Below are positions 4,349 to 24,320 of a stretch of DNA of 36,135 bases, in pieces; the stretch's first letter is position 1, and each line of letters starts with the position of its first letter. Origin of the DNA: an uncultured archaeon (GTDB lineage Archaea > Asgardarchaeota > Thorarchaeia > Thorarchaeales > Thorarchaeaceae); the NCBI GenBank assembly GCA_964590575.1, contig CAZPWM010000028.1:1-36135 (forward strand), read 5' to 3'. Position numbers and translations under genes: made by a program. Under the pieces are notes generated by a model. That model ran no database searches. It was not told the origin of the DNA and was given only the letters and a program-made list of their open reading frames with translations.

Positions 4349-4453
4349 GATTACGTCAAGACTGCAGAACATTTGGGAGCTGTTCAATACTCCGAAAAGA
4401 GAAGAAGTACAAGCTCTCAGATATCTACAGTTTGTGTAGGAGCGAGATTCAAG

Positions 4454-9626: not shown

Positions 9627-12600
9627 CTACATGTCTTTTCTTTTTCTGCGTGTCCAAACCACTTTCGGATGAGGAATAACGACATACAGAAGTGTGAAAC
9701 ACACGAAGCCAACGAGAAGAGCTAGGTCAAGAGGTACATATGCTGTATCTACCTGAAAGAGAGCCGCAGGAAGTGTCACCGGTGCAGCAATTGCATCGTG
9801 TGCCACAACGTACATCAAATTGTTACCATAACACAGCACATCACGTCCGGATGCACTATAGAAATGCCCAACTCTCGGGTCAAAATTGCTTGTGAGGTCC
9901 TCCTTCCAATAGTGCCAGAGCAGTCGGGCAGTAAATCCGTCGACAACATTGATGTACTCCTTGTTTGTCAGCACGAGATCGGTCCATCCATCTGCATTCA
10001 TATCTTCAAGGACAATGTGCGTGTCCTTTCCTCCCAACACCAGTGGAGCATTGTATCTCCAAACCTCGGTTCCAGTAAAGCTGTAGGCAATTGCTCCATA
10101 CCTCTCAAGATTGACCACCAATTCATCCACACTGTCATTGTTGTAGAGGTCACCGGCAAAGAATTCTCTCACTGTGCCAGTGGCGAAGTTGAGAGTGAAG
10201 CTGCCTCCTCCAACAAACTCAAACATATGGATATCTGAGCCGGAGTCCATTACAGCCAAGTCAGCAGATCCGTCTCCGTTGAAATCGCCAGCCGCGAGGC
10301 CATATGTCGATGTTGGAGAAGCAGTGGTGAAGAAAGCACCGTTCCCACCATTGTAGATTCGAGCATTGATTATCGATGCACCCATTGCTATGTCTGCTGT
10401 TGTGCCTCCTCTGAAGTTACCAACCGCCATGCGATACGAAGTTGCAGTCGAGGTAAAGCCATCTGCTTTGGTATTATAGAGAACATTACCCGCCTCATCA
10501 TACCATTCTATGTATACCTGGCTGCCACCAGACAGCTGTCGAATCAAGACAGCAAGTTCCTCAAAATCATTTCCAGCTGCACTACTGAAATCTGCAACCC
10601 TGATGCCTTCGACTTCGTGTGCGTCTGGTGCCTTTATGTGGAATAGGAGTTGGCCATCCAAGCCATCAATTATGTACACACTCTGCAGGCCAGACCACAC
10701 AGCAAGATCCTTGGTGGACCAATCGCTGATGTAGCCAATCTGGATATCAGATATCTTTGATTCAAATGTGATATTCCATCCGACCTTCATTGTCAAGCCA
10801 TCAATGAGAGCGAGAGTGTACTTCCCATCCGTGTTCCGACCTGCAACAACAATCTCGTCGAGAGGTTTCCCATCAATGTCATCAACCCATACGCCATAGA
10901 CGTTATTGACTCCCATCTCCCAGTAGAGGTCATGGTTCTCGTAGGCTACGACGTCTGGAGCCTCGGTTGGAATCACTGCTTGCACGGCGACTATGTCCTC
11001 ATGAGTATAATCCCAAGCAACAATAGAATCGAACTCACTTCCTGGTAGATATGCCCTCGTGACCTCTGTATAAACACCATCTGAATAATTGAACCAGATG
11101 GGCACGCCATTCCTGCCATCAATTGCGAGCACGATACCGATATCCAGTGGGCCGCCAGCATCATAAATCGCACCAGCAGCTACGATGTCATAGTTACCAG
11201 ATCCACCGATTTGAGCGATATCAACATCCCATATGCCAACGAGATACCCCAGCGCCCAGAGATGTGTTAGATCATAGTGCCACTGAGTGACACCCGATTT
11301 GACCTCCTCCAGATAGATGCCACTGTAGTAGGTCTGAACCAGAATCTCAACGATGTTGTCACCATCGAAATCAGCAATCCGTATCTCATTGATAATTCCC
11401 ATATAGGATGAATTGTAGTAGATGAGACCAGTTGTCACGTCAAGTATGTGAGTACTATTCCATGTAAATACAACATCATCAAAACCGTCATAATTGAAGT
11501 CGTGAGCAAGGATGTTGGAGGTCACGCTCGCAGTGAGTGCTGGACTCTGATAGAAAATTGTCCCATTTAGAGGATTCACGACAAAAAGTTCGCCATTGAG
11601 ATTGACAATTGCCACTTGTGGTAATAGGTCGTTAGTGAAATTCCCTACAACCGGTGAGAATTGAGGATACGCACCAAAGGCGTTGTGTGCCAGCATAGTG
11701 CCATTTGCATAAAGGACCCATAACTCGCCTGCATAGTCAGTGAACAGCACTTCAGGAAGTCCATCACCTGTGACATCTCCAGTGGTCAACTGCCAGACAT
11801 AGGAGGTGCTATCATATGACCACATGAGACTTCCATTATGAATGTCCAAGACATAGAGAATAGTGTCATTTCCTGCACAGAGGACCTCTGGTATAGTATC
11901 ATTGTTGATGTCACGGAGTATCATATCATTGAATCCATCATTGGAATCAGTGAATTCCCATCTCACAGATCCATCATCATCGAGTGCGAACACGCTCTTT
12001 TCGTTTGAATGAGCAGCAATAACCTCATCATAGCCGTCCAAGTCGAAGTCGTAGCTATCCATCATATCAGACATGATAACCCAGGTGAAGTCACCGGCAG
12101 TAGGTGTTGTCCAGAGCTGTTGCGAGTACATGAGATTGACTGCTCCCTCGGAGGGATCTAAGTATTCCCACAGGTAGACATCACCACGCTCTGTAGAAAT
12201 ACCAATCTCATCCCATCCATTTCCATTTGTATCAGACACTGTGACTCCTGTCACTGGATGAGTAAATGGATCTGAGAGCCAGACTTCTTCATGGGTCATG
12301 AATCCAGTTCCGTTCGTGGAATGCTTCATCTCATAGACTCCAACTTGATTGTCGAAACCGGCAACAACCTCACGTCTACCGTCGCTATCTGTGTCTCCAG
12401 TGTCTAGGTCAACTACATTCCGTAAATGGTTCTTCGTCCAGTCAGACTGACGATTGATGCCATAGTTGATGAAGTGGAATTTCCAAAATACTGGATTATC
12501 CATAATGATACCTGCGGGAACGTAAACGCTGTAGGAGAATGTTGAGGTATACATGAAACCAGCATCATCCATTGCAACAACAGCTGGCGAGAATACTGAG

Positions 12601-15600
12601 AGCTGTAACGGCCCCCAGAAAATAGTGGGACCACCAGGGAATTGATAATAGACAATGCCGCCAGGAAGCTCAACACGTTCAATATAGTCGGGAATAGTAT
12701 TGAGGTTTTCTTGATAGCTCCAAGTACGACCCTTTGTTGTACTCGCGACCATTCCAATACGGTCTTCCAAGGGAACACCCATAGTTTCGTATATCACGAC
12801 AATAGAGCGTTCTGGTGATTCTAGCTCACCGATGTCGACAAACATTTCATCATCGAAGAGTGTTGTAGCCTGATGAGGACTGGATAGGGTGAAGTTGAAG
12901 TTCGACTCTTCATCACTGACGAACACCCACACATCATAATCGGCCTTCGATGACTTGGTGTAGACAGCTGACATCGCGATGGCATATTGATACTTATCAT
13001 CTCCATCGTCATCAGCTAGCTTCACCACATCCACGTCATGAGCCTGGAAGTATGTCCTATCATTGAAGTTGGGATGGCAGTTCGTCCATGAACCAGAGAG
13101 GTCCTTCAAGATATATGCCGCGCCAACGCGTCCGTAAATATTACCTGAGATGATATTCCATGCATCGTACATGAAGACAAAACCAACATGCGTACTGTCA
13201 TACTCAAAGACACTTGGCCAGTATCTATCATAGAAGGTTGTACCGATGGGCTGCACACCATAGGTGTCTCGCCAGAGGAGCACTCCATGCCACCCTGTGC
13301 TTGTATCAAAGTAGCAGATTGCTACGTAGTGGTTAGCTAGAGTATCGTACACTTCCCACATGATGTACAGGTCGCCATCAGGCATAGATTGTATGGAGGG
13401 TCGAATCTCTCTCACAATGGAACTTGCATTCCCAGTGTATGTCATACCAGTGGATGGAGTAAGGAGGTATTCACCATATGACCACAGATCATTAGGTTCT
13501 AGGTATAACTTAAGCCAGATTCGAGAGGCATTCTCATAGACCATGAAGATGTAGTCATCGAATGGACCGATACCCCGTGCCATGTCCTTTATAGACCGCT
13601 CCGTCGTGATTGTGTCCAATTCATCAGCAGGTGTTCCACTTGGCCAGTGAGCCTTCTTCAGAGGAACAACAGGATAGTTGGGGGATGCAGTGACGTACTC
13701 CACCTTCTGGTATTCAGAGTCAGTGCCCGGAATCCATTCCCAGAGATCGAATCCATGGGTATGACCGATGACAATCTCTTGAGCACCGTCATAGTCTTGG
13801 TCATCGAGCCTGATGACACTGATTGGATTCCAATAGGTCACCTCCTCAGGTGCTTCCCATGCCTTGTAGAACGTGCCTCCTTGACATTCGTAAATGTGAA
13901 CGAATCCATTCTGCCGCTCGAATCGAGTGTCTTCGATTCCACCAATGATCACTTCCTTGTAACCGTCTTCGTCGGTATCACAGAGGGTCATGGTGTTGAT
14001 GTAGTAGTATCGGAAGTCTGGATACTCGGGATTACCCACAAGGAAGTATCGACCTTCCAATGCTGAATGTGTGACAAAGAATTCCGTTTCATTCATTCCT
14101 TCAAAGGTACCAACAGGCACATTGTAGATGAACAGGTATGGACCGGCTGCCACAGCAAGCTCCATTTCACCATTATAGTCGAGGTCGTCACCTGCAGCCA
14201 TGGCTGTAATCTCAGTCACTTCTTCCCAGCCAGCACGACTAGACCACTCAGTATCTCTCAGGTCAATCGAATAGACGAACTGTATTTCGTCACCACCATA
14301 GAGACCCTTGTCTTCAAAGACATAAATCTGCAGATTGGCAGACACGATAATCTCCTTGAGACCGTCTTGGTCCAAATCCACATCTGCAACCAGATGGTTC
14401 GCATGGTCCCATATCCGTCTATTGAAATCCCCAGAGATGCCTTCCAAGTCCTCATAGAGATACGGAGATACATCCGAAATCTCTGTGTGATTGAGGTCAA
14501 AGGACCTAAACATTCGTTTGTAGTTGTTGTTTGCGAGGTGCTCGAAGACGTACACATTATTATCATAATCCCCAACGATCAATTCATTGTTTCCATCACC
14601 ATCGATGTCTCCAGCGGTAATGGTCAATGTCCAATCCCCTAGGTCAGCATCATTACTCCAAGACTCATGAACATGGAATCCGATGTTGTTATAGATCTCA
14701 TATCCAACAAGACCACCACTCATGAGACTGAAGTCAAGTTGTGCTACACGTGGATAGCTTGCAACAATATAGCTCTCAGTTGTGTCGAACTCAGGAGCAG
14801 CCCAGGCAAGTCTCTGGTTCCCCTCACGGTAGCCTGCAAGGGTCCAGTTAAAGTCCATGTCCCAGCCCCAGAACTCGTACCATCGCTCAAGGGTGTAGCC
14901 ACTAAAGTAGCTCCCCATCTTTGGTACGATACGAATGTCTGTGAAGTTCTGGTACTTCATGTTCGTTTCAGGGAGTGGATTAGACATTATCATCTTGTCC
15001 TCGACCCAGGTAGGATTCTCTGCCGTACCATCGTTTATCCAACATGTGGCACCCATCTTGTTAGAGTAGCTGAGTATGAGATCGAGGTCGCCATCACTGT
15101 CAATATCGACCATCTCAGGCTGTCCCCAGATCTTACTTGTCTGTTTGGCATTAATCTCATCATAGTACCCTCTTACAAGTGTAAAGTTCATTGTTCCTGA
15201 TTCATACCACATGTTACGTGCCATGTAGATATGGCCATTTGACACTGTGAAGTCGAGGTCGCCATCACCATCAAAGTCTGCAAAGTCTAATTTTGGCTCC
15301 ACGGGTGCCATGTTTATGACCTCGGTCAGTTCACCAGTAGAATCTATCTCCCAGAGATCTATTCGGTCGCTGAACACAGATAGCTCGTCACTTCGATAGT
15401 AGAAGACAACTGCAGCACGTGTAGGATCAGTCGTAGAGGAGGTGAGGGGGATATCCTCCAAGGATATCTCTGGGTTGAATAGACCAAGTGCAATGAAAGG
15501 CCATATACTGTAGGGATTTGCCAGCTCAAGTCCGTTCATGAACAGTGGCGCTTCGACAGAAACGCTATCCCAGCCATCTCCTGCGATTTCAATATTGATA

Positions 15601-18600
15601 TTATTGAAGTAAGCCTGAGTAGTGAAATCGATTTCTGGGCCAATACCAACTGGCACAACATCAGGAACAGTGAAGACACGTACCTGTCCCTCATTTGTTC
15701 CCATCAGGTAGTTGAATGTAGCACCACCAAAGAGCCATGGATTCAGCGTTGCGTAGCTCCAGGAGCTGTAGGTTGTTCCAGCGTCAGGGACCCAAGGCAT
15801 TCCATACTGCCAGTTCCAAGTTGGTACATCTGGCTGATTTCCAACATAAATCATGTCCCAGATGTTCGCGCCAAAGGTGTAGAATGAATCATCTCCGGAG
15901 TCATATATCACATCATACTCGAATGATGTGTCGTTGTACATTATGGCATTAATCTCGCCAGTTACACTCCCCACGATGATCTTGATTGGCTCATCTAAGC
16001 CCTGAAGGTAACTCATGCCATCAAGTCTTAAGGGTCCTACTGTCACGCTCAATGCGTCGGTGAGTGTGTTGTAGACCTGCTCTAGTTCGATTCCATTGAC
16101 CTGGTAGAACCCTGAGTTATTCACCATGATCTTAGCATACCTGAACCAGTCCCATTTTCTATGTGAAAGCGCGTCGTCAACATCGACTCCAACCACATCA
16201 ACATCTGGATTGTATCTGTCCGATGAGATAAGTTCCCAGTCTGTACCGTCCTGTGAGATATAGAACCAGAAGTCTGAACTTAAGTGACTCAAATCAGTCC
16301 CTGCTTTGAAATAGATCTCAAGGTCGTCATTGCTATTGGCTCCACCCGTTCCTTCCTCATCAAGACCGAAGTCCAGAATTGCAGTGGCATTATCAACACC
16401 AACCAGAAATGCATTGAAATTGGAGAAGTTCCCATCCAACGCGCCTCCATGATGGACCGGTCCAGCCATTCCAGAGTTGTACGGGTACACGCTGGCGTCT
16501 GGTTCAAAGATCAAGAGAACATCATTCCAAACATACTCAATCGGTTCATTCTCTATGATAGTGATATCCAAAGGATCATGGTAAGTTACATTATGGGCAT
16601 ATATCATTCTGTCTACATAATTGTCGAGTCCCCAGAATCCAAAGGTCTCCCATGGTTTGAAGTCACGATACACTTTTTGATAGTCATAGGTGTGTGTCCA
16701 CGGGTTCCATTCAAGCGTGAAGACTCCTTGGCCTTGAGCCACCAACACAATATCATCACCAGGAGTGTTGTCAAGCTCACCTACAGCCATTGACTGGATT
16801 GGTGTCCAAGTGTAGTTCTCTGATGTCCAATTGAGGTAGTAATGGTTATCATAGATCAGCGGGAATGGCTGTCCGTTTATCATGATAGTAATTCCATCAT
16901 TCTCAAAGACATAGACAGTCCCATCTCTTGAGCCGCAAATAATCTCCGGAAGACCATTGTAGTTCGTGTCACCGGTTTCCAGACTGTAGATCTTCTCTCC
17001 CGCGTCAAGTGTTGCCACTTCATCATAGGTGATCCAATGTTCCTCGACAAAGGGATATCCAGAGTGATTGTCGTACTCGAAGAGATGCAGCTTACCATCC
17101 CAGCCGCCTGCAATGATATCAGGTCGATAATCACGATCAACATCATCGACTTTCAATGCGAAGACTCGAAACATGTCTGGTGATGTCCAGACATGATCGA
17201 ACTGATTCTCTGTGTTTGCGTATGGGTCATAGAGGTGACGTTGTTCAAATACGTATACGTATCCATCGGTACACCCAGCCACAATTTCGATGAGGTTGTT
17301 AAGGTCCGTATCACCGAAGTCGAGTGCCATGACATCGCTTTGGAAAACACTGTCCCCTGTGTCCCAGACCTTGTCCCATAGATTTGTCTGAGTGTTCAGT
17401 CTAAACACGTGGATCTGGTTGTCATACAGATAACCACCACCAAGTGCCAGAAAGCCAGTGCCCTCGTCATATGCTACAGCATGAATTGCCGCTTTTGAAC
17501 GCCATGGTTCGTAGTTCATTGCATAATCATTCACCCTATCGCCAAGGACCTGACCGATGTCCTGATCTGATGGCATCTTCTGAACAGTGGGATTGAACAT
17601 CTCAGCAATTTGTCCTTGAAGCTCAGGTGGGAGGTCCTCCCAACCTGCAGGATACTGGTCGAAAGCTGAGGTATCCTCTTCCGTTCCCCGCATGGGTGCG
17701 CTTGGAACATATCCGAATGAACTAACCAACAACATACCCAAGAATGTCAATGCAAGGAACATCAACGCAAGACTACTGCCACCCTTTCTGCTATTCTTCT
17801 TGGAGGTTGTACTCTTCTTCTCTTTCTTAGACGAGTCACTCTTCTTCTCGGAGCTCTTCTCTTTGCTCTTCTCGGAAACATCTTCGGCGAGCGCTTCCAA
17901 CTCGGGAGGTTTCTCACCAGGTTCCGGTCCCCGCCGTTTCTTCCTGTACCTCAGGATCAATGGCAGTCCATAAAGTAGGAATAATATCACAAAGATTCCA
18001 ATCCCAGCTCCCACAGCCAGGTACACAAGTGGGCTGATAGGCTCAAGGTAGGTTGGAGCTGCAGCCACTGTGAAGATTCTGATAGCCATATGGGTGTCGT
18101 CATCGTAGTCTACAGCAAACACTTGGAGTTCGTATGTGCCTATCTCCCACTGCATAGCTGTATAAGTCCAAGTCATCGTCACAGGATTGTAGGTCATTGT
18201 CAGATTGTTACTCCACCCTGCACTCGTGTTATATCTGAACTTCATACTCTTGAATGACGTGAAGTTCAGAACATTCACATCAACAGTCTGGGCGTTGTTC
18301 ACTATGGCCAGAGGCATTAGAACGTCCATTGACGCCTCGCCACGCGACACTGATATCGCCTGCTCATACTCGGTGATTGTGGTGTTTGTCAAGGGATTGG
18401 TCCCAATCACAATCTCCATTCCATCTGGATAGCCATCCCCATCTGAATCCGCTGATGCGGGGTTAGTACCATAGAGGTAGTATTCATCACCGTCAGATAT
18501 GCCATCGCCATCTGAGTCTTGAACGAATATCCCTCCGCCAAGCCTGTAGAGCTTAAGTTGAAACTCAATACCGTCTTCAAGTCCATCGAAGTCTGTGTCA

Positions 18601-21600
18601 AATTCCAGTGTGTCGGGGACCCCATCATCATCTGAGTCGTCATCCAACGGGTCCGTATGGTAGAAATTGACTTCTGCACCATCAGGTAGCCAGTCGTCAT
18701 CACAGTCTGGATCTGTAGCTAATGTTTCATAAATCGCCTGTGATGGAACGAACTGTAATATCGGCGATTCTTCAGCTAACGCAAACATAGATTCGTGCGT
18801 ATACGCATACATCTCTTCAGTTTCCATTCCTATAGACCAGTTACTCGGCGGCCACGGGCCATATGGCCAGACCTCCACTAGGGTTTCTTCGAAATCATAG
18901 AGCTCATCGCCGTCTGTGTCGTTGTATAATGCTGACGTGTTGTAGACCCAGGTTTCCCACCAGTCCGTTATCGTATCGTTATCTGTATCATTGTTTGCAG
19001 GATTTGTGTTGAACACCAGAACTTCCTGATAGTCAATCAGAAGGTCGTCATCAGAATCTCGATCAACAGGAGAGGTATTGTATCTGAAGACAAGGGTCAT
19101 TGCTCTGTATGGATAGATGAGTCCTGACACATTCTCTATTGCCATCTCAGCTCCATCGGGGATGAAGTCATGGTCAGTGTCCTTGTTTGCCGGGTCAAGT
19201 GGAATTGGGTCTAGCCATGGCACTAGTCCAGATGCGAGATAAAGCTCCATTGCGTCACTAAGCCCATCCTGATCCGTGTCTGCTTCTGTGACGTTTGTAA
19301 ATACCCACTCCTGATACATTATGCCAGATTCGTTCATTTTGAAGATATAGAAGCCATTAACCTCTTGATAGTCATTTAATGGGAAGGTCATCTCACCGAA
19401 CTCGTTTGGCTCAGTTATCGAGTCGCCATCGGTATCCCATGAAAGTGGGTCACAGTCATAGAGTTCAATCTCCTCACCATCAGACAGAAGGTCATCATCC
19501 GTGTCATAATCAAACGGATCCGTGTAATAGACGAAAATTTCTTCATAATCCGTGAGCCCATCATTATCCGAATCCTCGTCCATTGGATCTGAGCCATATA
19601 TCAGAACTTCGTCGCCATCGTAGATCATATCCGCGTCGCTATCATCAGTCATGGGATTTGTGTGCCAGAAGTAGACCTCTTCTCCGTCTCCAAGACCATC
19701 GAAGTCTGAGTCCCAGACATTGGGATTAGTGAAGAAGGTGTAGAACTCATCACCATCGGAAATCATGTCTCCGTCGGTGTCCTGTTCTCGTGGGTCTGAG
19801 CCAAGCAGAATCTCCTGAAGGTCAAATAGTCCGTCATCATCAGTGTCAGGGTCTAATGGATTAGTGTGGTTGCTGTACGGGTTCAATACGCCCTCCAGAC
19901 CGTCCAGAATCCCATCATCATCAGAATCACCATCGGTTGGATCAGTGGGCGGCGTCTGAGCAAGCTCATAGCCATCACTGTTAAGCCACAATCCTGGCTG
20001 AGGTGTTCGGTCTGTGACACCTGTGTCTCCATCCGTATCCGGATTACATGGATTGGTGAACACGTGTTTATTCTCAGGCTCACCTTCTTCATCATAGATG
20101 ATAATCCAGAATCCGGCAACTTCTGCGCCATCATTCATGTCCTTTAGGAAGAGGTATGCTTGAGAGTCGACAACTCCATTGTAGAGTTGTAACGCAGAGT
20201 CATCATCTGTATCAGCATCTAGTGGATGAGTAAAGCCTCCGTTGAAAATCAGAGGATTCGGATCCATCGCCCAACCAGTTTCCGAAGTGGAATCTTCAGT
20301 GTCGTTATAGAGTGCAGGGTCTCCGTAATAGGCCCCCATTGGGCCTTCATCTCCATCCACAAGCCCATCTCCGTCTGTGTCAGGATTCAAAGGGTCGGTG
20401 CGATCATTGTAGGACTCCCCTCCGATGATGATCTCTGTGACAGTGGGGGTTACGTTGGAAATGTCGAGTTTGGTGTATATCTCATATGAATCACTGAGTC
20501 CATCTCCATCAGTGTCTTGCTCGAGCGGATTGGTCCCATAGACCTCCACTTCCTTGTAGTCATCGACATCATCCCAGTCAGTATCTTCGCGCATTGGGTT
20601 GGTTCCAAGGTCCCACTCACGTCCATCAAGAAGCCCGTCTCCATCGCTGTCAGGATTGGCATGGTCCGTTCCCATGGTTTGGAACTCGAGTTTGTCATTT
20701 GCCCCATCATTGTCAGTATCTGCCTTGTTCTTATCCAATCCAGGTGTTTCATCTTCGAAAGTGTCCGCAAGCCCGTCTCCGTCAGTGTCAAATCCTACTC
20801 CCGATTCGTTGTACTCCACTTCACCCTTATTCGGTGACAGGTCCCATGGACCGCCAGGCTCCCAAGTGAATTTAGCAGAATCACTGAACATCAGAAATCG
20901 GAACTTCACCTTAAGCGTGAATATCAGCCGCAGCGTTATCTTCATTGGCGCTGGGTCCGCGAAGTCTTGGAAGAACGTCAGAATGATCTCCAGCGTTCCG
21001 TCTATGGTTATAGCCACGATTATCAGCTCTATGGGAATGTGCAGCGATAGACCGAAAATGATAGTGAGGGTCATACTGGATACCTCTGCGGCCACTGCAG
21101 TGGCTGCCTTCTTGACAATATCAATTGCTATCTCAAAGTACACTTCGATTGTTATCATATCCAGACCTAGGAATTCTGCCACCGTATTTAGTGCGCCACC
21201 GCCCACTCCAGCTGTCAGGAAATCAAGAAGCGTGAATACTTTCCCAATGTGGATTTTAATGTGAAGGCTCCACTCTACGATCTTGAAGAAATTATCCCAC
21301 TCAAACATTCCTCCTCTGAAAGTGAAAAGATTCACGACAAATTTAGCAGAACCTTCGAATGAGAGCTTGAGACCAAGGGATGAGAGCATTGTTTTCATGA
21401 GAGCGTTCTTTTCGGTGTCGAAACCGCCAATACCAAGTTCCGCGTAGAATTGTGGCGAAATCTCGAAGAAGCTCAGCATAGTCTTGAAGAAGTCTCCAAT
21501 GTTGTCCATTGAGAAGACCTCACGAGCATCGAAAATCATGCTCACAATCATATCGAATATGGGGTTTAGGTCAATAGCGAAATTGGCTCGGATTCCCAGA

Positions 21601-24320
21601 GCGTACTCTAGGTCAAAGAGGGACCAGTCACCAAGGCCAATTGGAAACTTACCTGAGAACCCTAGTAGGTCGTCAAGACCAGCAAATAATCCTTCAATCG
21701 TGTTCTCAATGTCCTCAAGCACCGGTTTGATGAGCCCACTCAGCCAGTCGAAAACTTTTCCAAGGAGCCATTTCACACCATTTGTGAAAATGTCCTTAAT
21801 ATCCATGAAGAACTCAAGCGTGTCTTCGAGCATGGTCTCATCGAAACCAACGCCAAGGAGGCCCTCCGCATAACCTAGTATCTCACTAATGACCTCCGTG
21901 GAGCTTGGCATATCCTCCTTACTAATACCAAAAGCATCTGGGAAGAATGATTGCAGTAGTTTCAGAAAGGCATCAATTGGAACATCATCAAATGCTGGCA
22001 ATGAGCCAACCAGCGAACCAGCAGCCATTAGAACAGACTGCATGATACCTTGGAATGACTGACCCTTGATCCCCTGAATCATCGTGATGATGCCGCCAAC
22101 AATTTGCCCGGCAGTATCCAAGACCTCATCAGAGCCTGGCAAGCCGCTAATGACATTCTCAACATCCAGATACGAGAGAACATTCTTTATCATAGTGGGG
22201 GCATCGCTGAGTTCAGAAACGAAATTACTGACAGTCTTGCTGACCATGTTCTTCAGAGCGTCACTGTCGGACACAAGGGCAATTAGACCCATGATTGGCT
22301 TCACAGCGCTATTGAGCGCCTCAATGACCTGGGCTGCTTCACCTCCTCCTATGACTTCGTTAATCAAATCTGCAGCAATCTCGAATAGGTCAGGCAGCTG
22401 ATTCTTGTCGAAGGCTCCATTGAAGAAACCAGTGAGCATGGTCATAGTATCTCGGACAACATCCTTGATGGCTTGGGTGACACCACTTGTAGCAGAATCA
22501 AGGATGCTTGAGATTTGTGACTTGAAACCATTGACATCACTGAATGCCCCTTCTTGGAACGATTTGATTACTGCCATCATCTGTTTTGCGAGATCTTCGG
22601 CACCACCGGGGATGTTGGATCCACCAACAATCTCCTGCAACATATCAACTCCGAACTCTAGGAAAGATGTAGTGTCAAAGTCATCGAGTAGATTGAAAGC
22701 GGACATTCCCATCTTCACAATAGACATTACTTTGTCGACAGCATCACTCAGACCCGTGACCGAGAGAATGGAACCCAGAAGGTCGGTTCCGATTGTTTCT
22801 ACAAACTTCACAAAATCCTTGCCTGAGAGGAAGTCAATTGTTGCCTCCACTAAACTTATGATTCGCGGAAGAAGAGTCGAGACCTGACCTGAGGTCATTC
22901 CGAGTGTTGCAGCAAGAGTCTTGTTCAGAAAGGCTTGAAGTGTATTCTTCGTGAAGAAACTGAATATAGTATCAAACACCCCTTTGCCTTCGGAAACAAC
23001 GCTACTTATGATGTCCCAGAGACCATTCTCGGTACCAAGGATTTGACCAATGAAGTCCTTTGCCATCTCCGGAACGGAATCAGGCAAAAGAGCAGTTACG
23101 AGCTCTCCGACTATTTCCAATATACTAGCAATATCACCTCTGAAGTTGAAGAGAGCTTTCAATATAATATTCAAGTAGTCCTTGAATTCCGCCATAAACG
23201 GGAACTCGTTCGCTATGGCTTGGACAATTGATTTTAGTGGGGACTCAAGGTCGAAATCTTTCACAATTCCAATTATTGGTTCAAGAACCTCGAACAAGCC
23301 CTTGATGGTCTCGATAAGGTCCGTGGGTATAGAGATTACAGTTGAACCGGAGTCACCCAGGACACTCAAAAGAACATCAATTATCTCACCAATAGGTCCC
23401 CTGAGAGCAGAAAGCAGAGGAATCTCACCAAGAACATAATCACTAGATGCAACTTCATCTGCAGTGCTTATTTTGATTGCAGGCGAGAAGTCTTCAGGCA
23501 GCTCTTCCTCCTCTAGCTCGACCAGTTTTCCTTCTTCACCCATTTGATAGAATGCTGGCTCGATTGTAGGTGCATGCTCCGCCCACATCGCATCGGTTCT
23601 CTTCTGCATATCATCTTGATCAATCTCACCAACTGCATCTACTGGTTCAATACTTCTCTCAAAGAACGTTTCGAAGTTATCGCCATAAATCTTCAACGCG
23701 ATGGTCCGAAGATCACCAGCAGCGTTCTCATAGTCACTGCTAAGGTCGGCTCTTGTTGAAATGACTTCGTGTATAGTCCACATATCAAAGAAAGCGAGAA
23801 GTAAGCCGTCTACCTGTTCCGCCTTGCTTGTACGAATATTCGTGTTCGCATCAACAAGAAATTGTTCTAAGCTTAATGTATTCCCCATTCCAACGATATG
23901 TTGAGTCATTTCATGTTCTGCCAATAGACTGTAGAACTGGTCCCAAGTAATGTTCATATCTCGAAAATGAACACTCCTCAAATCCGAACTCAAAGCATAG
24001 ATGGCAATCCATGGTTCTGCCATTAACTCATATTGCAGGCTTGACCAATCGCAAATTGACACCATTTGTATATGTTCAAGCCGAAATGCAAGTACTTGGT
24101 GAACATTTTCTGCTATCGTTCTCAGTAGCTTACTTGATGGATCATAAAAGATGTATACAGGGTCTATCTCGTACTTCGCCAATGGGTCTCGGAATAATGG
24201 TTCCTCTTGCTGCATCATCTCGCCAGCCCAAACTGCTTGTGGAATAAACCCAACAAGCATTATCGTGATAAAAACAACAGAAACCAGTTGGATCCTCAGT
24301 AGTCTCCGGTTCATATGCAT
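9627..24320 (-). CDS. Giant (4897 aa) membrane-anchored surface protein with TSP3-like DxDxDG repeats and FG-GAP/VCBS beta-propeller repeats; adhesin-like
   Basis: Uninterrupted ORF with GAGGAGG upstream of the start. N-terminal signal peptide (RRLLR plus hydrophobic core ending AVWA). Many D-T/S-D-x-D-G-L-x-D-x-x-E...T-N-P repeats and many GDxDGDGxxEIxxG repeats. Two internal TM helices (about aa 2097-2123 and 2184-2203), a C-terminal TM helix with an RRKRK tail, and abundant N-x-S/T sequons. Confidence 0.92.
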   Translation of the reverse strand: MHMNRRLLRIQLVSVVFITIMLVGFIPQAVWAGEMMQQEEPLFRDPLAKYEIDPVYIFYDPSSKLLRTIAENVHQVLAFRLEHIQMVSICDWSSLQYELMAEPWIAIYALSSDLRSVHFRDMNITWDQFYSLLAEHEMTQHIVGMGNTLSLEQFLVDANTNIRTSKAEQVDGLLLAFFDMWTIHEVISTRADLSSDYENAAGDLRTIALKIYGDNFETFFERSIEPVDAVGEIDQDDMQKRTDAMWAEHAPTIEPAFYQMGEEGKLVELEEEELPEDFSPAIKISTADEVASSDYVLGEIPLLSALRGPIGEIIDVLLSVLGDSGSTVISIPTDLIETIKGLFEVLEPIIGIVKDFDLESPLKSIVQAIANEFPFMAEFKDYLNIILKALFNFRGDIASILEIVGELVTALLPDSVPEMAKDFIGQILGTENGLWDIISSVVSEGKGVFDTIFSFFTKNTLQAFLNKTLAATLGMTSGQVSTLLPRIISLVEATIDFLSGKDFVKFVETIGTDLLGSILSVTGLSDAVDKVMSIVKMGMSAFNLLDDFDTTSFLEFGVDMLQEIVGGSNIPGGAEDLAKQMMAVIKSFQEGAFSDVNGFKSQISSILDSATSGVTQAIKDVVRDTMTMLTGFFNGAFDKNQLPDLFEIAADLINEVIGGGEAAQVIEALNSAVKPIMGLIALVSDSDALKNMVSKTVSNFVSELSDAPTMIKNVLSYLDVENVISGLPGSDEVLDTAGQIVGGIITMIQGIKGQSFQGIMQSVLMAAGSLVGSLPAFDDVPIDAFLKLLQSFFPDAFGISKEDMPSSTEVISEILGYAEGLLGVGFDETMLEDTLEFFMDIKDIFTNGVKWLLGKVFDWLSGLIKPVLEDIENTIEGLFAGLDDLLGFSGKFPIGLGDWSLFDLEYALGIRANFAIDLNPIFDMIVSMIFDAREVFSMDNIGDFFKTMLSFFEISPQFYAELGIGGFDTEKNALMKTMLSSLGLKLSFEGSAKFVVNLFTFRGGMFEWDNFFKIVEWSLHIKIHIGKVFTLLDFLTAGVGGGALNTVAEFLGLDMITIEVYFEIAIDIVKKAATAVAAEVSSMTLTIIFGLSLHIPIELIIVAITIDGTLEIILTFFQDFADPAPMKITLRLIFTLKVKFRFLMFSDSAKFTWEPGGPWDLSPNKGEVEYNESGVGFDTDGDGLADTFEDETPGLDKNKADTDNDGANDKLEFQTMGTDHANPDSDGDGLLDGREWDLGTNPMREDTDWDDVDDYKEVEVYGTNPLEQDTDGDGLSDSYEIYTKLDISNVTPTVTEIIIGGESYNDRTDPLNPDTDGDGLVDGDEGPMGAYYGDPALYNDTEDSTSETGWAMDPNPLIFNGGFTHPLDADTDDDSALQLYNGVVDSQAYLFLKDMNDGAEVAGFWIIIYDEEGEPENKHVFTNPCNPDTDGDTGVTDRTPQPGLWLNSDGYELAQTPPTDPTDGDSDDDGILDGLEGVLNPYSNHTNPLDPDTDDDGLFDLQEILLGSDPREQDTDGDMISDGDEFYTFFTNPNVWDSDFDGLGDGEEVYFWHTNPMTDDSDADMIYDGDEVLIYGSDPMDEDSDNDGLTDYEEIFVYYTDPFDYDTDDDLLSDGEEIELYDCDPLSWDTDGDSITEPNEFGEMTFPLNDYQEVNGFYIFKMNESGIMYQEWVFTNVTEADTDQDGLSDAMELYLASGLVPWLDPIPLDPANKDTDHDFIPDGAEMAIENVSGLIYPYRAMTLVFRYNTSPVDRDSDDDLLIDYQEVLVFNTNPANNDTDNDTITDWWETWVYNTSALYNDTDGDELYDFEETLVEVWPYGPWPPSNWSIGMETEEMYAYTHESMFALAEESPILQFVPSQAIYETLATDPDCDDDWLPDGAEVNFYHTDPLDDDSDDDGVPDTLEFDTDFDGLEDGIEFQLKLYRLGGGIFVQDSDGDGISDGDEYYLYGTNPASADSDGDGYPDGMEIVIGTNPLTNTTITEYEQAISVSRGEASMDVLMPLAIVNNAQTVDVNVLNFTSFKSMKFRYNTSAGWSNNLTMTYNPVTMTWTYTAMQWEIGTYELQVFAVDYDDDTHMAIRIFTVAAAPTYLEPISPLVYLAVGAGIGIFVILFLLYGLPLILRYRKKRRGPEPGEKPPELEALAEDVSEKSKEKSSEKKSDSSKKEKKSTTSKKNSRKGGSSLALMFLALTFLGMLLVSSFGYVPSAPMRGTEEDTSAFDQYPAGWEDLPPELQGQIAEMFNPTVQKMPSDQDIGQVLGDRVNDYAMNYEPWRSKAAIHAVAYDEGTGFLALGGGYLYDNQIHVFRLNTQTNLWDKVWDTGDSVFQSDVMALDFGDTDLNNLIEIVAGCTDGYVYVFEQRHLYDPYANTENQFDHVWTSPDMFRVFALKVDDVDRDYRPDIIAGGWDGKLHLFEYDNHSGYPFVEEHWITYDEVATLDAGEKIYSLETGDTNYNGLPEIICGSRDGTVYVFENDGITIMINGQPFPLIYDNHYYLNWTSENYTWTPIQSMAVGELDNTPGDDIVLVAQGQGVFTLEWNPWTHTYDYQKVYRDFKPWETFGFWGLDNYVDRMIYAHNVTYHDPLDITIIENEPIEYVWNDVLLIFEPDASVYPYNSGMAGPVHHGGALDGNFSNFNAFLVGVDNATAILDFGLDEEGTGGANSNDDLEIYFKAGTDLSHLSSDFWFYISQDGTDWELISSDRYNPDVDVVGVDVDDALSHRKWDWFRYAKIMVNNSGFYQVNGIELEQVYNTLTDALSVTVGPLRLDGMSYLQGLDEPIKIIVGSVTGEINAIMYNDTSFEYDVIYDSGDDSFYTFGANIWDMIYVGNQPDVPTWNWQYGMPWVPDAGTTYSSWSYATLNPWLFGGATFNYLMGTNEGQVRVFTVPDVVPVGIGPEIDFTTQAYFNNINIEIAGDGWDSVSVEAPLFMNGLELANPYSIWPFIALGLFNPEISLEDIPLTSSTTDPTRAAVVFYYRSDELSVFSDRIDLWEIDSTGELTEVINMAPVEPKLDFADFDGDGDLDFTVSNGHIYMARNMWYESGTMNFTLVRGYYDEINAKQTSKIWGQPEMVDIDSDGDLDLILSYSNKMGATCWINDGTAENPTWVEDKMIMSNPLPETNMKYQNFTDIRIVPKMGSYFSGYTLERWYEFWGWDMDFNWTLAGYREGNQRLAWAAPEFDTTESYIVASYPRVAQLDFSLMSGGLVGYEIYNNIGFHVHESWSNDADLGDWTLTITAGDIDGDGNNELIVGDYDNNVYVFEHLANNNYKRMFRSFDLNHTEISDVSPYLYEDLEGISGDFNRRIWDHANHLVADVDLDQDGLKEIIVSANLQIYVFEDKGLYGGDEIQFVYSIDLRDTEWSSRAGWEEVTEITAMAAGDDLDYNGEMELAVAAGPYLFIYNVPVGTFEGMNETEFFVTHSALEGRYFLVGNPEYPDFRYYYINTMTLCDTDEDGYKEVIIGGIEDTRFERQNGFVHIYECQGGTFYKAWEAPEEVTYWNPISVIRLDDQDYDGAQEIVIGHTHGFDLWEWIPGTDSEYQKVEYVTASPNYPVVPLKKAHWPSGTPADELDTITTERSIKDMARGIGPFDDYIFMVYENASRIWLKLYLEPNDLWSYGEYLLTPSTGMTYTGNASSIVREIRPSIQSMPDGDLYIMWEVYDTLANHYVAICYFDTSTGWHGVLLWRDTYGVQPIGTTFYDRYWPSVFEYDSTHVGFVFMYDAWNIISGNIYGRVGAAYILKDLSGSWTNCHPNFNDRTYFQAHDVDVVKLADDDGDDKYQYAIAMSAVYTKSSKADYDVWVFVSDEESNFNFTLSSPHQATTLFDDEMFVDIGELESPERSIVVIYETMGVPLEDRIGMVASTTKGRTWSYQENLNTIPDYIERVELPGGIVYYQFPGGPTIFWGPLQLSVFSPAVVAMDDAGFMYTSTFSYSVYVPAGIIMDNPVFWKFHFINYGINRQSDWTKNHLRNVVDLDTGDTDSDGRREVVAGFDNQVGVYEMKHSTNGTGFMTHEEVWLSDPFTHPVTGVTVSDTNGNGWDEIGISTERGDVYLWEYLDPSEGAVNLMYSQQLWTTPTAGDFTWVIMSDMMDSYDFDLDGYDEVIAAHSNEKSVFALDDDGSVRWEFTDSNDGFNDMILRDINNDTIPEVLCAGNDTILYVLDIHNGSLMWSYDSTSYVWQLTTGDVTGDGLPEVLFTDYAGELWVLYANGTMLAHNAFGAYPQFSPVVGNFTNDLLPQVAIVNLNGELFVVNPLNGTIFYQSPALTASVTSNILAHDFNYDGFDDVVFTWNSTHILDVTTGLIYYNSSYMGIINEIRIADFDGDNIVEILVQTYYSGIYLEEVKSGVTQWHYDLTHLWALGYLVGIWDVDIAQIGGSGNYDIVAAGAIYDAGGPLDIGIVLAIDGRNGVPIWFNYSDGVYTEVTRAYLPGSEFDSIVAWDYTHEDIVAVQAVIPTEAPDVVAYENHDLYWEMGVNNVYGVWVDDIDGKPLDEIVVAGRNTDGKYTLALIDGLTMKVGWNITFESKISDIQIGYISDWSTKDLAVWSGLQSVYIIDGLDGQLLFHIKAPDAHEVEGIRVADFSSAAGNDFEELAVLIRQLSGGSQVYIEWYDEAGNVLYNTKADGFTSTATSYRMAVGNFRGGTTADIAMGASIINARIYNGGNGAFFTTASPTSTYGLAAGDFNGDGSADLAVMDSGSDIHMFEFVGGGSFTLNFATGTVREFFAGDLYNNDSVDELVVNLERYGAIAYSFTGTEVWRYNAPLVLGGKDTHIVLEDMNADGWTDLVLTNKEYINVVDGFTARLLWHYWKEDLTSNFDPRVGHFYSASGRDVLCYGNNLMYVVAHDAIAAPVTLPAALFQVDTAYVPLDLALLVGFVCFTLLYVVIPHPKVVWTRRKRKDM
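9800..17500 (-). repeat. FG-GAP/VCBS-like and PQQ-like beta-propeller blade repeats within the giant protein
   Basis: Examples: GDTDLNNLIEIVAG, GDTNYNGLPEIICG, ADFDGDGDLDF, GDIDGDGNNELIVG, GDVTGDGLPEV, GDFNGDGSADLAV. The C-terminal part has PQQ-like LYVLDIHNGSLMWSY and INVVDGFTARLLWHY. Confidence 0.85.
18390..20795 (-). repeat. Array of about 26 thrombospondin type 3-like (bacterial TSP3) Ca2+-binding repeats within the giant protein
   Basis: Hand count of 26 D-[TSC]-D-x-D motifs from GFDTDGDG to ADSDGDGYPDG. The core unit is about 22-23 aa, with variable insertions. Confidence 0.85.

What the first reader, a model, noticed from the sequence alone, without database searches (positions are those of the whole stretch)
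9627..24320. Giant 4897-aa Asgard surface protein with two separate ectodomains on one polypeptide
Seen: a signal peptide, about 2050 aa of ectodomain A, a TM helix ending RYRKKRR, a 55-60 aa Lys/Ser/Glu loop, a second hydrophobic helix, about 2650 aa of ectodomain B, and a final TM helix with a basic tail. Established: TSP3-like and FG-GAP repeats are Ca2+-binding modules of adhesins and integrin-alpha heads. Inference: the out-in-out-in topology would fix a TSP3-stalked head and a multi-propeller module side by side at 1:1 stoichiometry, like a single-chain heterodimeric receptor or cell-contact apparatus. I do not recognise this architecture from any described protein.
Basis: partly seen in the sequence, partly recalled or inferred. 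Interest (0 to 1): 0.85.

Follow-up and report, generated by a model that had tools for sequence, protein, structure and literature searches.

The report
Two Asgard surface genes fused into one
This 4,897-residue Thorarchaeota membrane protein is real and arose when two neighbouring cell-surface genes, kept side by side across many Asgard archaea including the cultured Lokiarchaeum ossiferum, merged into one reading frame, which suggests that the two proteins work together on the cell surface.

Summary
Window 9627-24320 (-) is one open 4,897-aa frame with a signal peptide, ectodomain A, a TM helix plus RYRKKRR, a 61-aa Lys/Ser/Glu loop, a second hydrophobic helix, ectodomain B, and a TM helix with a basic tail.

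It is a gene fusion, not a new design. In most relatives A (about 2,050-2,300 aa) and B (about 2,630-3,200 aa) are separate adjacent genes. The internal helix is B's former signal peptide and the loop is A's former cytoplasmic tail. B followed A on the same strand in 41 of 46 near-full A-head loci, and only 3 shared one frame. Ca. Lokiarchaeum ossiferum has the split pair. Fusion arose at least three times.

The frame is not an assembly error. It is open in five further genome records, and a contig from another study crosses the junction with no indel or stop.

A has a head without a confidently recognised fold on a TSP3 calcium-binding stalk. B is a chain of FG-GAP propellers. That they form a two-subunit surface contact complex is inference, and binding was not shown. 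Whether the internal signal peptide is cleaved remains open.

The parts
9627..24320 (-). Whole fused ORF, 4,897 aa plus stop (A-B fusion)
   Evidence: It is the only copy of the A head and of B in this 91%-complete genome.
24222..24320 (-). Residues 1-33: N-terminal signal peptide of A. It has the n-region MHMNRR, a hydrophobic core, and ...AVWA before GE.
   Evidence: Kyte-Doolittle 2.34; charges. The consensus PQAVWAGQ is conserved in 44 aligned homologues. Cleavage is inferred.
23328..24176 (-). Residues about 49-331: N-terminal alpha/beta domain of the A head (Rossmann-like three-layer sandwich)
   Evidence: AlphaFold2 model with pLDDT about 85-92 in this part. VIA-align gives Z 9-11 to lobes of periplasmic binding proteins and LacI, SAVED-CHAT and PurE, which is a generic fold match.
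21681..23324 (-). Residues about 333-880: all-helical domain of the A head
   Evidence: Secondary structure of the AlphaFold2 model, pLDDT about 65-85. No Pfam hit and no PDB sequence hit.
20895..21671 (-). Residues about 884-1142: long-strand antiparallel beta-meander domain of the A head. Strands are 13-19 residues long and include the very hydrophobic pair at 1080-1119.
   Evidence: pLDDT about 70. VIA-align: 47 of the 50 best chains are bacterial outer-membrane beta-barrel proteins, Z 8.0-10.5, 135-202 residues aligned, rmsd 3.2-8.7 A. Foldseek best hit is the EspP beta-domain, E 1.6e-3, TM 0.23.
18366..20843 (-). Residues about 1160-1985: TSP3-type calcium-binding repeat stalk
   Evidence: Pfam TSP3_bac. 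23 strict DxDxDxxxDxxE motifs at 1178-1958. 66-80% identical to Lokiarchaeum A over residues 1101-1600.
18036..18308 (-). Residues about 2005-2095: membrane-proximal module of A, unassigned. By my own reading it is probably a beta sandwich.
   Evidence: It is conserved in split A proteins just before their TM helix. No Pfam hit. The fold was not modelled.
17949..18014 (-). Residues 2103-2124: TM helix 1, the former C-terminal anchor of A, followed by RYRKKRR
   Evidence: It is homologous to the C-terminal TM helix of split A proteins.
17766..17948 (-). Residues 2125-2185: cytoplasmic Lys/Ser/Glu loop, the former cytoplasmic tail of A. It ends in ...RKGG, the remnant of the KKGGA end of A, whose codons formed B's Shine-Dalgarno site.
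   Evidence: GGAGG is present upstream of B in 13 of 14 split loci but in only 1 of 6 fused loci.
17703..17765 (-). Residues 2186-2206: hydrophobic helix 2, the former signal peptide core of B. Whether it is cleaved is unknown.
   Evidence: It aligns with the N-terminal signal peptides of split B proteins, MKLKLL... and MRAKILAL.... Kyte-Doolittle 2.31.
9735..17702 (-). Residues 2207-4862: ectodomain B, several FG-GAP/VCBS beta-propellers with unassigned inserts at about 2500-3000 and 3540-3960
   Evidence: Pfam on the whole protein and on ten pieces. 15 calcium-loop motifs. 42% identical over 2,718 alignment columns to Lokiarchaeum B. Residues 2281-2580 are 65-70% identical.
9666..9734 (-). 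Residues 4863-4885: C-terminal TM anchor of B
9627..9665 (-). Residues 4886-4897 (KVVWTRRKRKDM), a basic cytoplasmic tail, plus the stop codon

Best explanation
The giant ORF is a genuine, recently fixed in-frame fusion of a two-gene cell-surface unit found in Asgard archaea.

Gene A encodes:
- a signal peptide;
- a head of about 1,100 aa made of an alpha/beta domain, a helical domain and a long-strand beta-meander;
- a TSP3-type calcium-binding stalk of about 800 aa;
- a membrane-proximal module;
- a TM anchor and a basic Lys/Ser-rich cytoplasmic tail.

Gene B encodes its own signal peptide, about 2,650 aa of FG-GAP/VCBS beta-propellers, and a TM anchor.

In the ancestral state, B's ribosome-binding site lies inside A's last codons (KKGGA-stop) and B starts 1-4 nt from A's stop, so the two genes are translationally coupled. 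In the window's clade the stop and the frame offset were lost. A's tail became a cytoplasmic loop and B's signal peptide became an internal helix that runs from the cytoplasm to the outside.

Shown: the fusion, its ancestry, its recurrence and its conservation.

Inferred:
- A and B act together at 1:1 on the outer face of the single membrane as a contact or adhesion apparatus. A calcium-stiffened stalk would present the A head beside or above an integrin-alpha-like propeller platform.
- The fused form either stays one chain with a TM hairpin or is cut after the internal signal peptide into the ancestral two chains.
For: The frame is real:
- The frame is open.
- The same fused frame occurs in five other public genome records at 91-93% identity and in genomes G011, G004 and G009. 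These handles and records may be the same genomes.
- Contigs of run X2 match with no differences across 17636-17962.
- One contig of run X6, from another study, spans 17300-18400 with 41 substitutions and no gap. Of the 40 substitutions listed, 28 are synonymous, 12 are not, and none makes a stop.

Ancestry:
- Split adjacent A then B on the same strand occurs in G010, G001, G028, G039 and G035.
- 14 of 19 genome-contig loci are split.
- In a 201-genome draw of the phylum, B's N-terminus lies downstream on the same strand in 41 of 46 near-full A-head hits, and 3 of those share one frame.
- The complete Ca. Lokiarchaeum ossiferum genome has A (2,078 aa) and B (2,629 aa) 3 nt apart.

Coupling:
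- A ends in KKGGA-stop, and the sequence GGAGGTG sits 6 nt before B's GTG start.
- The KKGGA end is also present in Lokiarchaeum.
- In G028 the two genes overlap in ATGA.
- GGAGG is kept in 13 of 14 split junctions and in 1 of 6 fused ones. The six fused loci are one clade, so they count as one event.

Recurrence:
- The fused state needs 2 changes on a 25-row tree rooted with other families.
- It needs 4 changes, at least 3 of them forced by well-supported branches, on a 72-row tree.
- The junction sequences of the lineages differ.

Surface location: signal peptides, charge bias and all 47 sequons in the ectodomains.

Repeats: TSP3_bac and FG-GAP score above the Pfam cutoffs.
Against: - No experiment or prediction here shows that A touches B.
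- Conserved adjacency and fusion are indirect (Rosetta-stone) evidence. They would also arise for two proteins that only need co-expression.
- Adhesion or contact is inferred from repeat types alone. No ligand is known.
- The most conserved part of B (65-70% identity between Thorarchaeota and Lokiarchaeum at residues 2281-2580) is unusually conserved for an adhesin tip. This could point to a conserved internal partner or an enzymatic role instead.
- The pair is patchy. The A head was found in 54 of 201 Asgard genomes searched, so it is not a core envelope component.
- In some paralogous pairs the order is B then A (G039:C23 and G157:C4).
- Topology was not checked with a dedicated predictor.
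Confidence: 0.7

Rival explanations
1. Polyprotein-like processing. The fusion is functionally near-neutral because signal peptidase still cuts after the internal signal peptide (about ...LLVSS|FG). The cell would then carry A as a hairpin-anchored chain and B as a separate type I membrane protein, as in the ancestor. The single chain would exist only as a precursor.
For: Helix 2 is homologous to the signal peptides of split B proteins. It keeps small residues three and one positions before a Phe-Gly: VSS|FG here, against VSA|FS in the split sister L038. The conserved F-G-x-(I/V)-P-x-x-P stretch after the hydrophobic core is retained in fused forms.
Against: The n-region and hydrophobic core were heavily rewritten in the fused clade while the flanks stayed 86-93% identical. 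MKLKLLTVSIIALFVV became SSLALMFLALTFLGMLLV. This fits a change of role to a permanent helix. No cleavage-site predictor was run, and the -3/-1 reading is my own.
Confidence: 0.4
2. Neutral accident between neighbours that do not interact. A and B are merely co-expressed surface proteins with separate jobs, and the fusions are tolerated because an internal signal peptide keeps both topologies correct.
For: No A-B interface was obtained here. Flanking genes are not conserved, so there is no larger operon logic. B-like multi-propeller proteins occur widely in Heimdall, Hod, Odin and Hermod lineages, while A-head relatives are few: 90 representatives among 1.84 billion. B-type proteins can therefore exist without A.
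Against: Adjacency with a fixed order and spacing held in 41 of 46 loci across several Asgard families. Start and stop are coupled, with the ribosome-binding site inside A. The fusion recurred at least three times. The fused gene is the only copy in this genome. The junction shows 28 synonymous against 12 non-synonymous differences.
Confidence: 0.15
3. Assembly, binning or sequencing artefact. The true locus would have a stop or frameshift between A and B, as in the split relatives.
For: The split sister lineage at 86-88% identity differs only by a small rearrangement around the stop. The window is a MAG contig from a low-coverage assembly, with contig word depth about 4-9.
Against: Six species-level genome records, counting the window, share the fused frame. 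Contigs from four runs in four different studies cover the junction or part of it without any indel, and one of them is a strain with 41 substitutions. The internal Shine-Dalgarno site has decayed in 5 of the 6 fused genomes, which a sequencing error would not produce.
Confidence: 0.02
4. Envelope scaffold rather than adhesin. The pair is a structural canopy component of the Asgard cell envelope, which lacks an S-layer. It would space or stiffen the surface rather than bind another cell.
For: Ca. L. ossiferum lacks an ordered S-layer and shows unidentified 'complex surface proteins' protruding from a single membrane (PMC9834061, passages read). That organism encodes the pair. Both proteins are large, membrane-anchored and rich in sequons.
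Against: The distribution is patchy: 54 of 201 genomes, and only 3 of 14 genomes of the window's own genus in that draw. This does not fit an essential envelope component. Abundance data are lacking.
Confidence: 0.2

Closest known systems
Integrin alpha/beta heterodimer (metazoan adhesion receptor)
   Same: B carries FG-GAP beta-propeller repeats with DxDxDG-type calcium loops and a single C-terminal TM helix with a short basic tail. It is paired 1:1 with a second type I membrane protein. The fused form behaves like a single-chain version of a two-subunit receptor.
   Different: B has several propellers over 2,650 aa, not one propeller plus thigh and calf legs. Pfam found no integrin leg domain and the tail has no GFFKR motif. 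A has no vWA or beta-I domain: the VIA-align top 50 for its alpha/beta domain contain no vWA fold, and the family consensus at the equivalent place is YDPxDE, not DxSxS. The relation is functional analogy plus a shared repeat type, not orthology.
Giant repeat adhesins of bacteria and archaea built from TSP3/VCBS/FG-GAP calcium-binding modules (the general class is recalled from knowledge; Pfam PF18884 TSP3_bac and PF13517 FG-GAP_3)
   Same: Very large size, a Sec signal, calcium-binding repeat stalks, and propeller or lectin-like distal modules. This is the same kind of surface protein.
   Different: Here the modules are divided between two coupled genes with separate TM anchors. The A head has no Pfam, PDB-sequence or confident fold match. 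The fusion joins them through a TM, loop and signal-peptide hairpin.
Rosetta-stone gene fusions of interacting subunits, and polyproteins with internal signal peptides (general concepts, recalled)
   Same: Separate adjacent genes in most genomes and one ORF in a few. Internal signal or anchor sequences set the alternating topology.
   Different: These are usually described for cytoplasmic enzymes or viral polyproteins. In the searches run here I found no description of two type I surface proteins of an archaeon fused this way.
Outer-membrane beta-barrel walls (autotransporter beta-domains, porins, TonB-dependent receptors) and large lipid transfer proteins (ApoB, MTP, vitellogenin), structural look-alikes of the A head only
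   Same: The beta domain is a meander of 13-19-residue antiparallel strands. 47 of the 50 best VIA-align chains are outer-membrane barrels, Z 8.0-10.5. For the whole head, 7 of the 10 best Foldseek rows are lipid transfer proteins, which combine a helical domain with large sheets.
   Different: All scores are weak: Foldseek E at best 1.6e-3 and 2.5e-3, and TM at most 0.36. The archaeon has no outer membrane or BAM machinery. The model does not show a closed barrel. This is a resemblance of arrangement only, not membership.

Membership tests
Fusion of a conserved two-gene unit (Rosetta-stone fusion) | The two halves exist as separate full-length genes in related genomes | tested here: met
   A alone has open frames of 2,049-2,258 aa and B alone 2,465-3,178 aa in the loci where the frame is not cut short by a contig end.
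Fusion of a conserved two-gene unit (Rosetta-stone fusion) | The junction corresponds to the end of one gene and the start of the other | tested here: met
   The loop matches A's TM helix plus Lys/Ser tail, and helix 2 matches B's signal peptide.
Fusion of a conserved two-gene unit (Rosetta-stone fusion) | The fused state is derived and heritable, not an error | tested here: met
   The fused clade of 6 is monophyletic (SH-aLRT 97) and sister to split forms, and the outgroups are split. Independent contigs agree. The Shine-Dalgarno site has decayed.
Integrin alpha | FG-GAP beta-propeller repeats with calcium-binding loops | tested here: met
   FG-GAP_3 scores 44.5 bits (cutoff 26.9) on the whole protein. 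FG-GAP scores 31.6 and 31.5 bits (cutoff 22.1) on pieces. 15 loop motifs lie in B.
Integrin alpha | One seven-bladed propeller followed by thigh and calf Ig-like legs | tested here: not met
   No integrin leg family appears among the Pfam hits at E up to 0.01 on the whole protein or 0.1 on pieces. FG-GAP hits are spread over 2,390-4,690, which implies several propellers.
Integrin alpha | Conserved membrane-proximal GFFKR-type tail motif (motif recalled) | tested here: not met
   The tail reads KVVWTRRKRKDM.
Integrin beta (as the identity of A) | vWA-type beta-I domain with a DxSxS MIDAS motif (motif recalled) | tested here: not met
   No vWA Pfam hit. The family consensus at the first strand-loop is YDPxDE.
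Bacterial-type TSP3 repeat proteins (PF18884) | Tandem DxDxDGxxDxxE calcium-binding repeats above the Pfam cutoff | tested here: met
   TSP3_bac scores 34 bits against a cutoff of 25, in 3 stretches. There are 23 strict motif matches. Calcium binding itself was not tested.
Transmembrane outer-membrane beta-barrel (autotransporter, porin, TonB-dependent receptor, Omp85) | A closed barrel of amphipathic strands, residing in an outer membrane | tested here: inconclusive
   Only partial-wall similarity was found: Z 8.0-10.5 with 135-202 residues aligned and Foldseek TM 0.22-0.36. Model pLDDT is 70. The host is an archaeon with a single membrane (PMC9834061 passages).
Large lipid transfer proteins (ApoB, MTP, vitellogenin) | N-terminal beta-barrel, helical domain and amphipathic sheets enclosing a lipid cavity | tested here: inconclusive
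   Seven of the 10 best Foldseek rows belong to this family, but E is 2.5e-3 to 3.3e-2, probability at most 0.41 and TM 0.07-0.11. The N-terminal domain here is alpha/beta, not a barrel.

The most novel reading that the evidence does not exclude
The A-B unit may be a dedicated Asgard cell-to-cell contact machine. It is one candidate for the unidentified 'complex surface proteins' seen by cryo-tomography on Ca. Lokiarchaeum ossiferum.

In this reading the A head, a helical domain plus a beta-barrel-wall-like, very hydrophobic beta-meander, is a lipid-binding or membrane-engaging module. It would be held out on a calcium-stiffened stalk beside an integrin-like propeller platform, so that the archaeon can grip or tap the membrane of a syntrophic partner.

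Recurrent fusion of A and B would then mark an obligate 1:1 receptor-effector pair.
Probability: 0.07. Interest if true: 0.9.

Novelty: new variant of a known kind. Interest (0 to 1): 0.5.

Why it matters
[quoted passage not shown] The cultured ones lack an S-layer and carry unidentified complex surface proteins that are thought to mediate the cell-cell contacts invoked in models of eukaryogenesis (PMC9834061, passages read).

This finding defines a concrete gene pair for that question. All named relatives found are from Asgard archaea. One protein has a head of unrecognised fold on a calcium-binding stalk, and the other is a multi-propeller integrin-alpha-like protein. The two are conserved end to end between Thorarchaeota and a cultured Lokiarchaeon. 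Repeated natural fusions argue that they work as a unit.

This turns an anonymous pair of 'hypothetical proteins' into a testable candidate for part of the Asgard surface apparatus. The Ca. L. ossiferum copy is the A gene with locus tag NEF87_004127 and the gene after it.

The fusion itself is a clean natural example of two type I membrane proteins merged through a hairpin of TM helix, loop and signal peptide.

Tried and rejected
Structure and binding:
- Complex prediction used the A head alpha/beta domain, the A beta domain and B residues 2246-2666. The score was 0.00 in both runs and the tool gave no verdict. This is not evidence either way.
- Foldseek against the PDB found no match at E up to 1e-3, either for the whole A head or for the beta domain alone.
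- VIA-align on the whole head reported only the N-terminal alpha/beta domain. The helical domain was therefore barely tested.
- phmmer of A and of B against PDB sequences gave 0 hits at E up to 0.01.
- The ESM Atlas gave no usable hit for the A head and only generic FG-GAP clusters for B's N-terminus.

Genomic context:
- tblastn of the window's other ORFs against the flanks of the pair in G001, G010, G028, G039 and G003 found nothing shared. The only matches were antisense-frame hits inside A and an ABC ATPase at 26-27% identity.
- Pfam on the window's neighbours shows housekeeping genes and no further surface or secretion genes.

A caspase or legumain-like protease reading of the A N-terminal domain, suggested by the hits 8tl0 and 5obt, was rejected. 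The only cysteine in that domain is not conserved in the family consensus.

Reads and expression:
- The RNA run X13 gave two 151-nt contigs, at 17783-17933 and 18020-18170. They do not bridge the junction and cannot prove transcription.

Literature and tools:
- Four full-text searches found no description of this pair or of the fused architecture. Liu et al. 2021, cited in PMC9258230 for 'integrin repeat-containing ESPs' in Asgard, is not held, and supplements are closed, so a mention there cannot be excluded.
- No SignalP or DeepTMHMM was available.
Full report
**Observation**

Window 9627-24320 on the minus strand is one uninterrupted ORF of 4,897 codons. A 19-residue Kyte-Doolittle scan gives four strong hydrophobic segments:
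- residues 5-33;
- residues 2094-2126, followed by RYRKKRR;
- residues 2180-2206;
- residues 4857-4888, followed by KVVWTRRKRKDM.

A weaker segment at 1082-1118 is modelled by AlphaFold2 as two long beta strands.

The stretch between the two internal helices is 61 residues with 15 K, 12 S and 9 E. Charges follow the positive-inside rule for an out-in-out-in path: the loop has 19 K+R against 11 D+E, the 30 residues after helix 2 have 1 against 7, and the C-terminal tail has 6 against 1. All 47 N-x-S/T sequons lie in the two proposed ectodomains. Pfam confirms TSP3_bac and FG-GAP/FG-GAP_3 above their cutoffs.

No dedicated topology predictor was available.

**Organism and genome**

The window is a whole contig (C28) of a 3.4-Mb genome in 194 contigs, 91% complete. 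All 19 related genome records are MAGs. Twelve are titled Thorarchaeota or Promethearchaeota and the other seven only 'uncultured archaeon' or 'archaeon'. The neighbouring genes are housekeeping genes:
- CDC48;
- an amine oxidase;
- an aminotransferase;
- a Roadblock/LC7 protein;
- an ABC transporter;
- ThiN.

**What the ORF is**

I searched the two halves separately in relatives. Both halves occur as separate, adjacent, same-strand genes in many genomes. Below, A is residues 1 to about 2180 and B is residues from about 2180 to the end. Open-frame lengths:

| Genome and contig | A (aa) | B (aa) |
|---|---|---|
| G010:C2 | 2,304 | 2,698 |
| G001:C3 | 2,252 | 2,671 |
| G028:C1 (another family) | 2,073 | 2,654 |
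| G039:C3 | 2,240 | 2,908 |
| G035:C34 | 1,553 | 1,830 |

The ORF maps and translations show that a split A ends with a beta-rich module, a TM helix, basic residues and a Lys/Ser/Thr/Glu/Pro-rich tail. A split B begins with a classical signal peptide such as MRAKILALMVIYV... or MKMKSK...ISIFVLILM.... The internal 'TM, loop, second helix' of the giant protein is therefore A's C-terminal anchor and cytoplasmic tail joined to B's signal peptide.

**How common each state is**

Among 19 genome-contig loci found with B's N-terminus, 5 have the frame open for 261-1,000 residues upstream and are fused. These are 91-93% identical to the window. The other 14 have a stop 38-151 codons upstream and are split. 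The split set includes two at 86-88% identity.

In an even draw of 201 genomes of the phylum, the A head (residues 35-1150) was found in 54 at E up to 1e-20, and B's N-terminus in 48 at E up to 1e-15.

One search listed 76 match rows. I kept the 46 that cover most of the head and dropped 30 partial rows. Of those 46:
- 41 have B's N-terminus about 2.9-4.6 kb downstream on the same strand.
- 3 of those 41 share one open frame (G000, G004 and G022).
- 5 have no B on the contig. In four of these the A frame itself is only 1,302-1,608 aa, which probably reflects contig ends. I did not check this.

Some dropped rows are also adjacent pairs (G150:C15 and G132:C228). Others belong to paralogous pairs in the order B then A (G039:C23, G157:C4 and possibly G050:C7).

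The complete genome of the cultured Ca. Lokiarchaeum ossiferum B35 has A at L061 10001-16237 (2,078 aa) and B at 16241-24130 (2,629 aa). The A gene matches locus tag NEF87_004127 within one 90% cluster. The two genes are 3 nt apart. Its B is 42% identical to the window's B over 2,718 alignment columns.

**Translational coupling and what changed**

In split members of the genus, A ends ...AAG GGA GGT GCA TAG, which reads KKGGA-stop. B starts at a GTG one base after the stop, in another frame. B's Shine-Dalgarno site GGAGGTG is therefore made of A's last codons. The KKGGA end is also present in Lokiarchaeum A, whose tail is otherwise only four lysines long. In G028 the genes overlap as ATGA.

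In the window the same place reads AGA AAG GGT GGC AGT AGT CTT GCG TTG ATG, which is RKGGSSLALM. The stop codon is gone, and the two frames are now one. The Lys-rich n-region with its start codon is replaced.

GGAGG occurs in the 200 nt or so before B in 13 of 14 split loci. It occurs in only 1 of 6 fused loci, counting the window. The six fused loci are one clade, so this counts as one event. Even so, it shows that the internal ribosome-binding site is no longer maintained, as expected if B is now made only as part of the fusion.

**Is it an artefact?**

No. The evidence is:
- Six species-level genomes carry the fused frame.
- Logan contigs of run X1 (possibly the source sample) and run X2 match the junction region with no differences.
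- One contig of run X6, from another study, spans 17300-18400 with 41 substitutions and no gap.
- Of the 40 substitutions listed, 28 are synonymous, 12 are not, and none creates a stop. This indicates purifying selection across the junction.
- The fused gene is the only A head and the only B in this genome.

**Recurrence**

I built a 25-row tree of B's N-terminus, rooted with two other families. The six fused genomes form one clade (SH-aLRT 97) that is sister to split L038 and L039. The fused G003 is sister to split L049 (SH-aLRT 100). The fused state needs two changes on this tree.

A search of the protein collection with residues 2000-2700 returned 70 proteins. Eight carry TSP3 plus FG-GAP. 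Seven of these are 4,348-4,887 aa and one is a 3,144-aa partial, and they fall in four sequence groups. All 8 have the TM, basic loop and hydrophobic helix junction, but with different junction sequences. For example, G003-type proteins keep KGK-M-TALFG with the methionine and GGAGGA, and P0055 and P0056 keep MRKIRTKVF in frame.

On a 72-row tree the fused state needs 4 changes, at least 3 of them forced by well-supported branches. In that tree 'split' was assigned by length alone, and the root is at the midpoint. The window's architecture is thus one of several independent instances of the same event.

**Anatomy of A**

The head family is small. A search of 1.84 billion representatives found 90 at E up to 1e-3 and 51 at E up to 1e-30. 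The word-indexed search found 45 proteins. Those with names are all Asgard 'hypothetical proteins'.

An AlphaFold2 model from a 44-row alignment has mean pLDDT 76.8 and shows three parts:
- an alpha/beta domain (model residues 15-297);
- an all-helical domain (299-846);
- a domain of 13-19-residue antiparallel strands (850-1108).

Foldseek found nothing at E up to 1e-3 in the PDB. Its weak top rows were large lipid transfer proteins: ApoB100 at 2.5e-3, then MTP, vitellogenin and lipovitellin. TM scores were only 0.07-0.11.

VIA-align matched only the N-terminal domain, as a generic Rossmann-like sandwich with Z 9-11.

I then modelled the beta domain alone (residues 824-1150, pLDDT 70.2). It matched walls of outer-membrane beta-barrels almost exclusively: 47 of the 50 best chains, Z 8.0-10.5, 135-202 residues aligned, rmsd 3.2-8.7 A. 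The best Foldseek hit was the EspP beta-domain at E 1.6e-3 and TM 0.23. I read this as a long-strand beta-meander of unassigned family. It is a lead, not a classification.

After the head come about 800 residues with 23 strict TSP3-type calcium motifs, a small membrane-proximal module, and the TM helix.

**Anatomy of B**

FG-GAP-family hits fall at about 2390-2475, 3012-3085, 3217-3262, 4090-4275 and 4656-4690. There are 15 calcium-loop motifs in B. The stretches at about 2500-3000 and 3540-3960 have no hit.

B-type multi-propeller proteins of 2,700-3,860 aa are widespread in Asgard lineages: Heimdall, Hodarchaeales, Odin, Hermod and Kariarchaeaceae. Some carry C-type lectin and lamin-tail domains.

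Identity to Lokiarchaeum is strikingly uneven:

| Region | Residues | Identity to Lokiarchaeum |
|---|---|---|
| B, N-terminal part | 2281-2580 | 65-70% |
| B, middle part | 3181-3580 | 59-69% |
| B, C-terminal third | 3581 onward | 20-52% (mostly 20-41%) |
| A head | 1-1100 | 35-57% |

**Mechanism**

Shown: this is a coupled two-gene surface unit that has been fused.

Inferred, at about 0.6: A and B act together at equal numbers on the outer face of the membrane. Coupling, fixed order, recurrent fusion and the single copy all point that way. The repeat types are those of calcium-dependent adhesion modules. Asgard cells have no S-layer and carry unidentified complex surface proteins that are thought to mediate contacts (PMC9834061, passages; PMC11284389, passages).

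Open questions:
- Whether the fused chain is cut after the internal signal peptide. The sequence VSS|FG is compatible with signal peptidase by my reading of the -3/-1 rule. Against this, the signal peptide was extensively rewritten in the fused clade.
- What the head binds.
- Why B's N-terminal part is so conserved.

**Comparison with what is known**

The protein works like a single-chain version of a two-subunit adhesion receptor and shares the FG-GAP propeller with integrin alpha. It fails the other integrin features that I could test:
- it has no leg domains;
- it lacks the tail motif;
- A has no vWA or MIDAS partner domain.

It belongs to the broad class of giant calcium-repeat surface proteins. 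FG-GAP or integrin-repeat proteins in Asgard have been noted before; Liu et al. 2021 is cited for this in PMC9258230 (passage read), but that paper itself is not held. Four full-text searches found no description of this pair or of the fusion. Supplements are closed.

**Verdict**

Novelty is a new variant of a known kind. The real interest lies in the underlying A-B unit, found so far only in Asgard archaea, and in its unrecognised head domain. Both are testable in a cultured Lokiarchaeon.

Noticed in passing
G000:C12:23253-28439 (own genome, another contig; loci L002-L008): A separate 2,283-aa open frame is built almost entirely of tandem TSP3-like modules. It gave 13 matches at 40-54% identity to residues 1485-1968 of the giant protein. 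Similar frames of about 2,280 aa occur in many genomes of the genus.
   Followed up: no
window 26266-26655 (-) and 26686-27624 (-): A Roadblock/LC7 domain protein (Pfam E 1.2e-11) lies next to a 312-aa ORF with no Pfam hit. In Asgard genomes Roadblock proteins often accompany small GTPases (recalled). The neighbour was not identified.
   Followed up: no
window 4373-6124 (+): A 583-aa ORF has only a sub-threshold CARDB hit (20.4 bits, cutoff 22.7). It may be another surface protein.
   Followed up: no
G039:C23:5176-19484 (-) and G157:C4:141730-154655 (-): Second, more divergent copies of the pair lie in the reverse gene order, B upstream of A, in genomes that also have the usual A-then-B pair.
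   Followed up: partly
L061 16100-16245 (Ca. L. ossiferum) and L038-L051 junctions: A's C-terminal residues KKGGA are conserved from Thorarchaeota to Lokiarchaeum. This is apparently because their codons (AAGGGAGGTG) are B's ribosome-binding site, so a protein motif is kept by an RNA-level constraint. Lokiarchaeum A lacks the long Lys/Ser tail.
   Followed up: partly
window residues 2281-2580 and 3181-3580 of the ORF (about nt 16581-17480 and 13581-14780): These parts of B are 59-70% identical between Thorarchaeota and Lokiarchaeum. The same query is only 39-41% identical to other Asgard families (G028 and G039). This may mean horizontal transfer of the pair between Asgard lineages.
   Followed up: no
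window 9798-22887, several + strand ORFs of 105-221 aa: Long antisense ORFs lie inside the giant gene. Some give tblastn matches to the antisense of A in G010. These are most likely a by-product of the conserved repeat coding sequence and not genes.
   Followed up: partly
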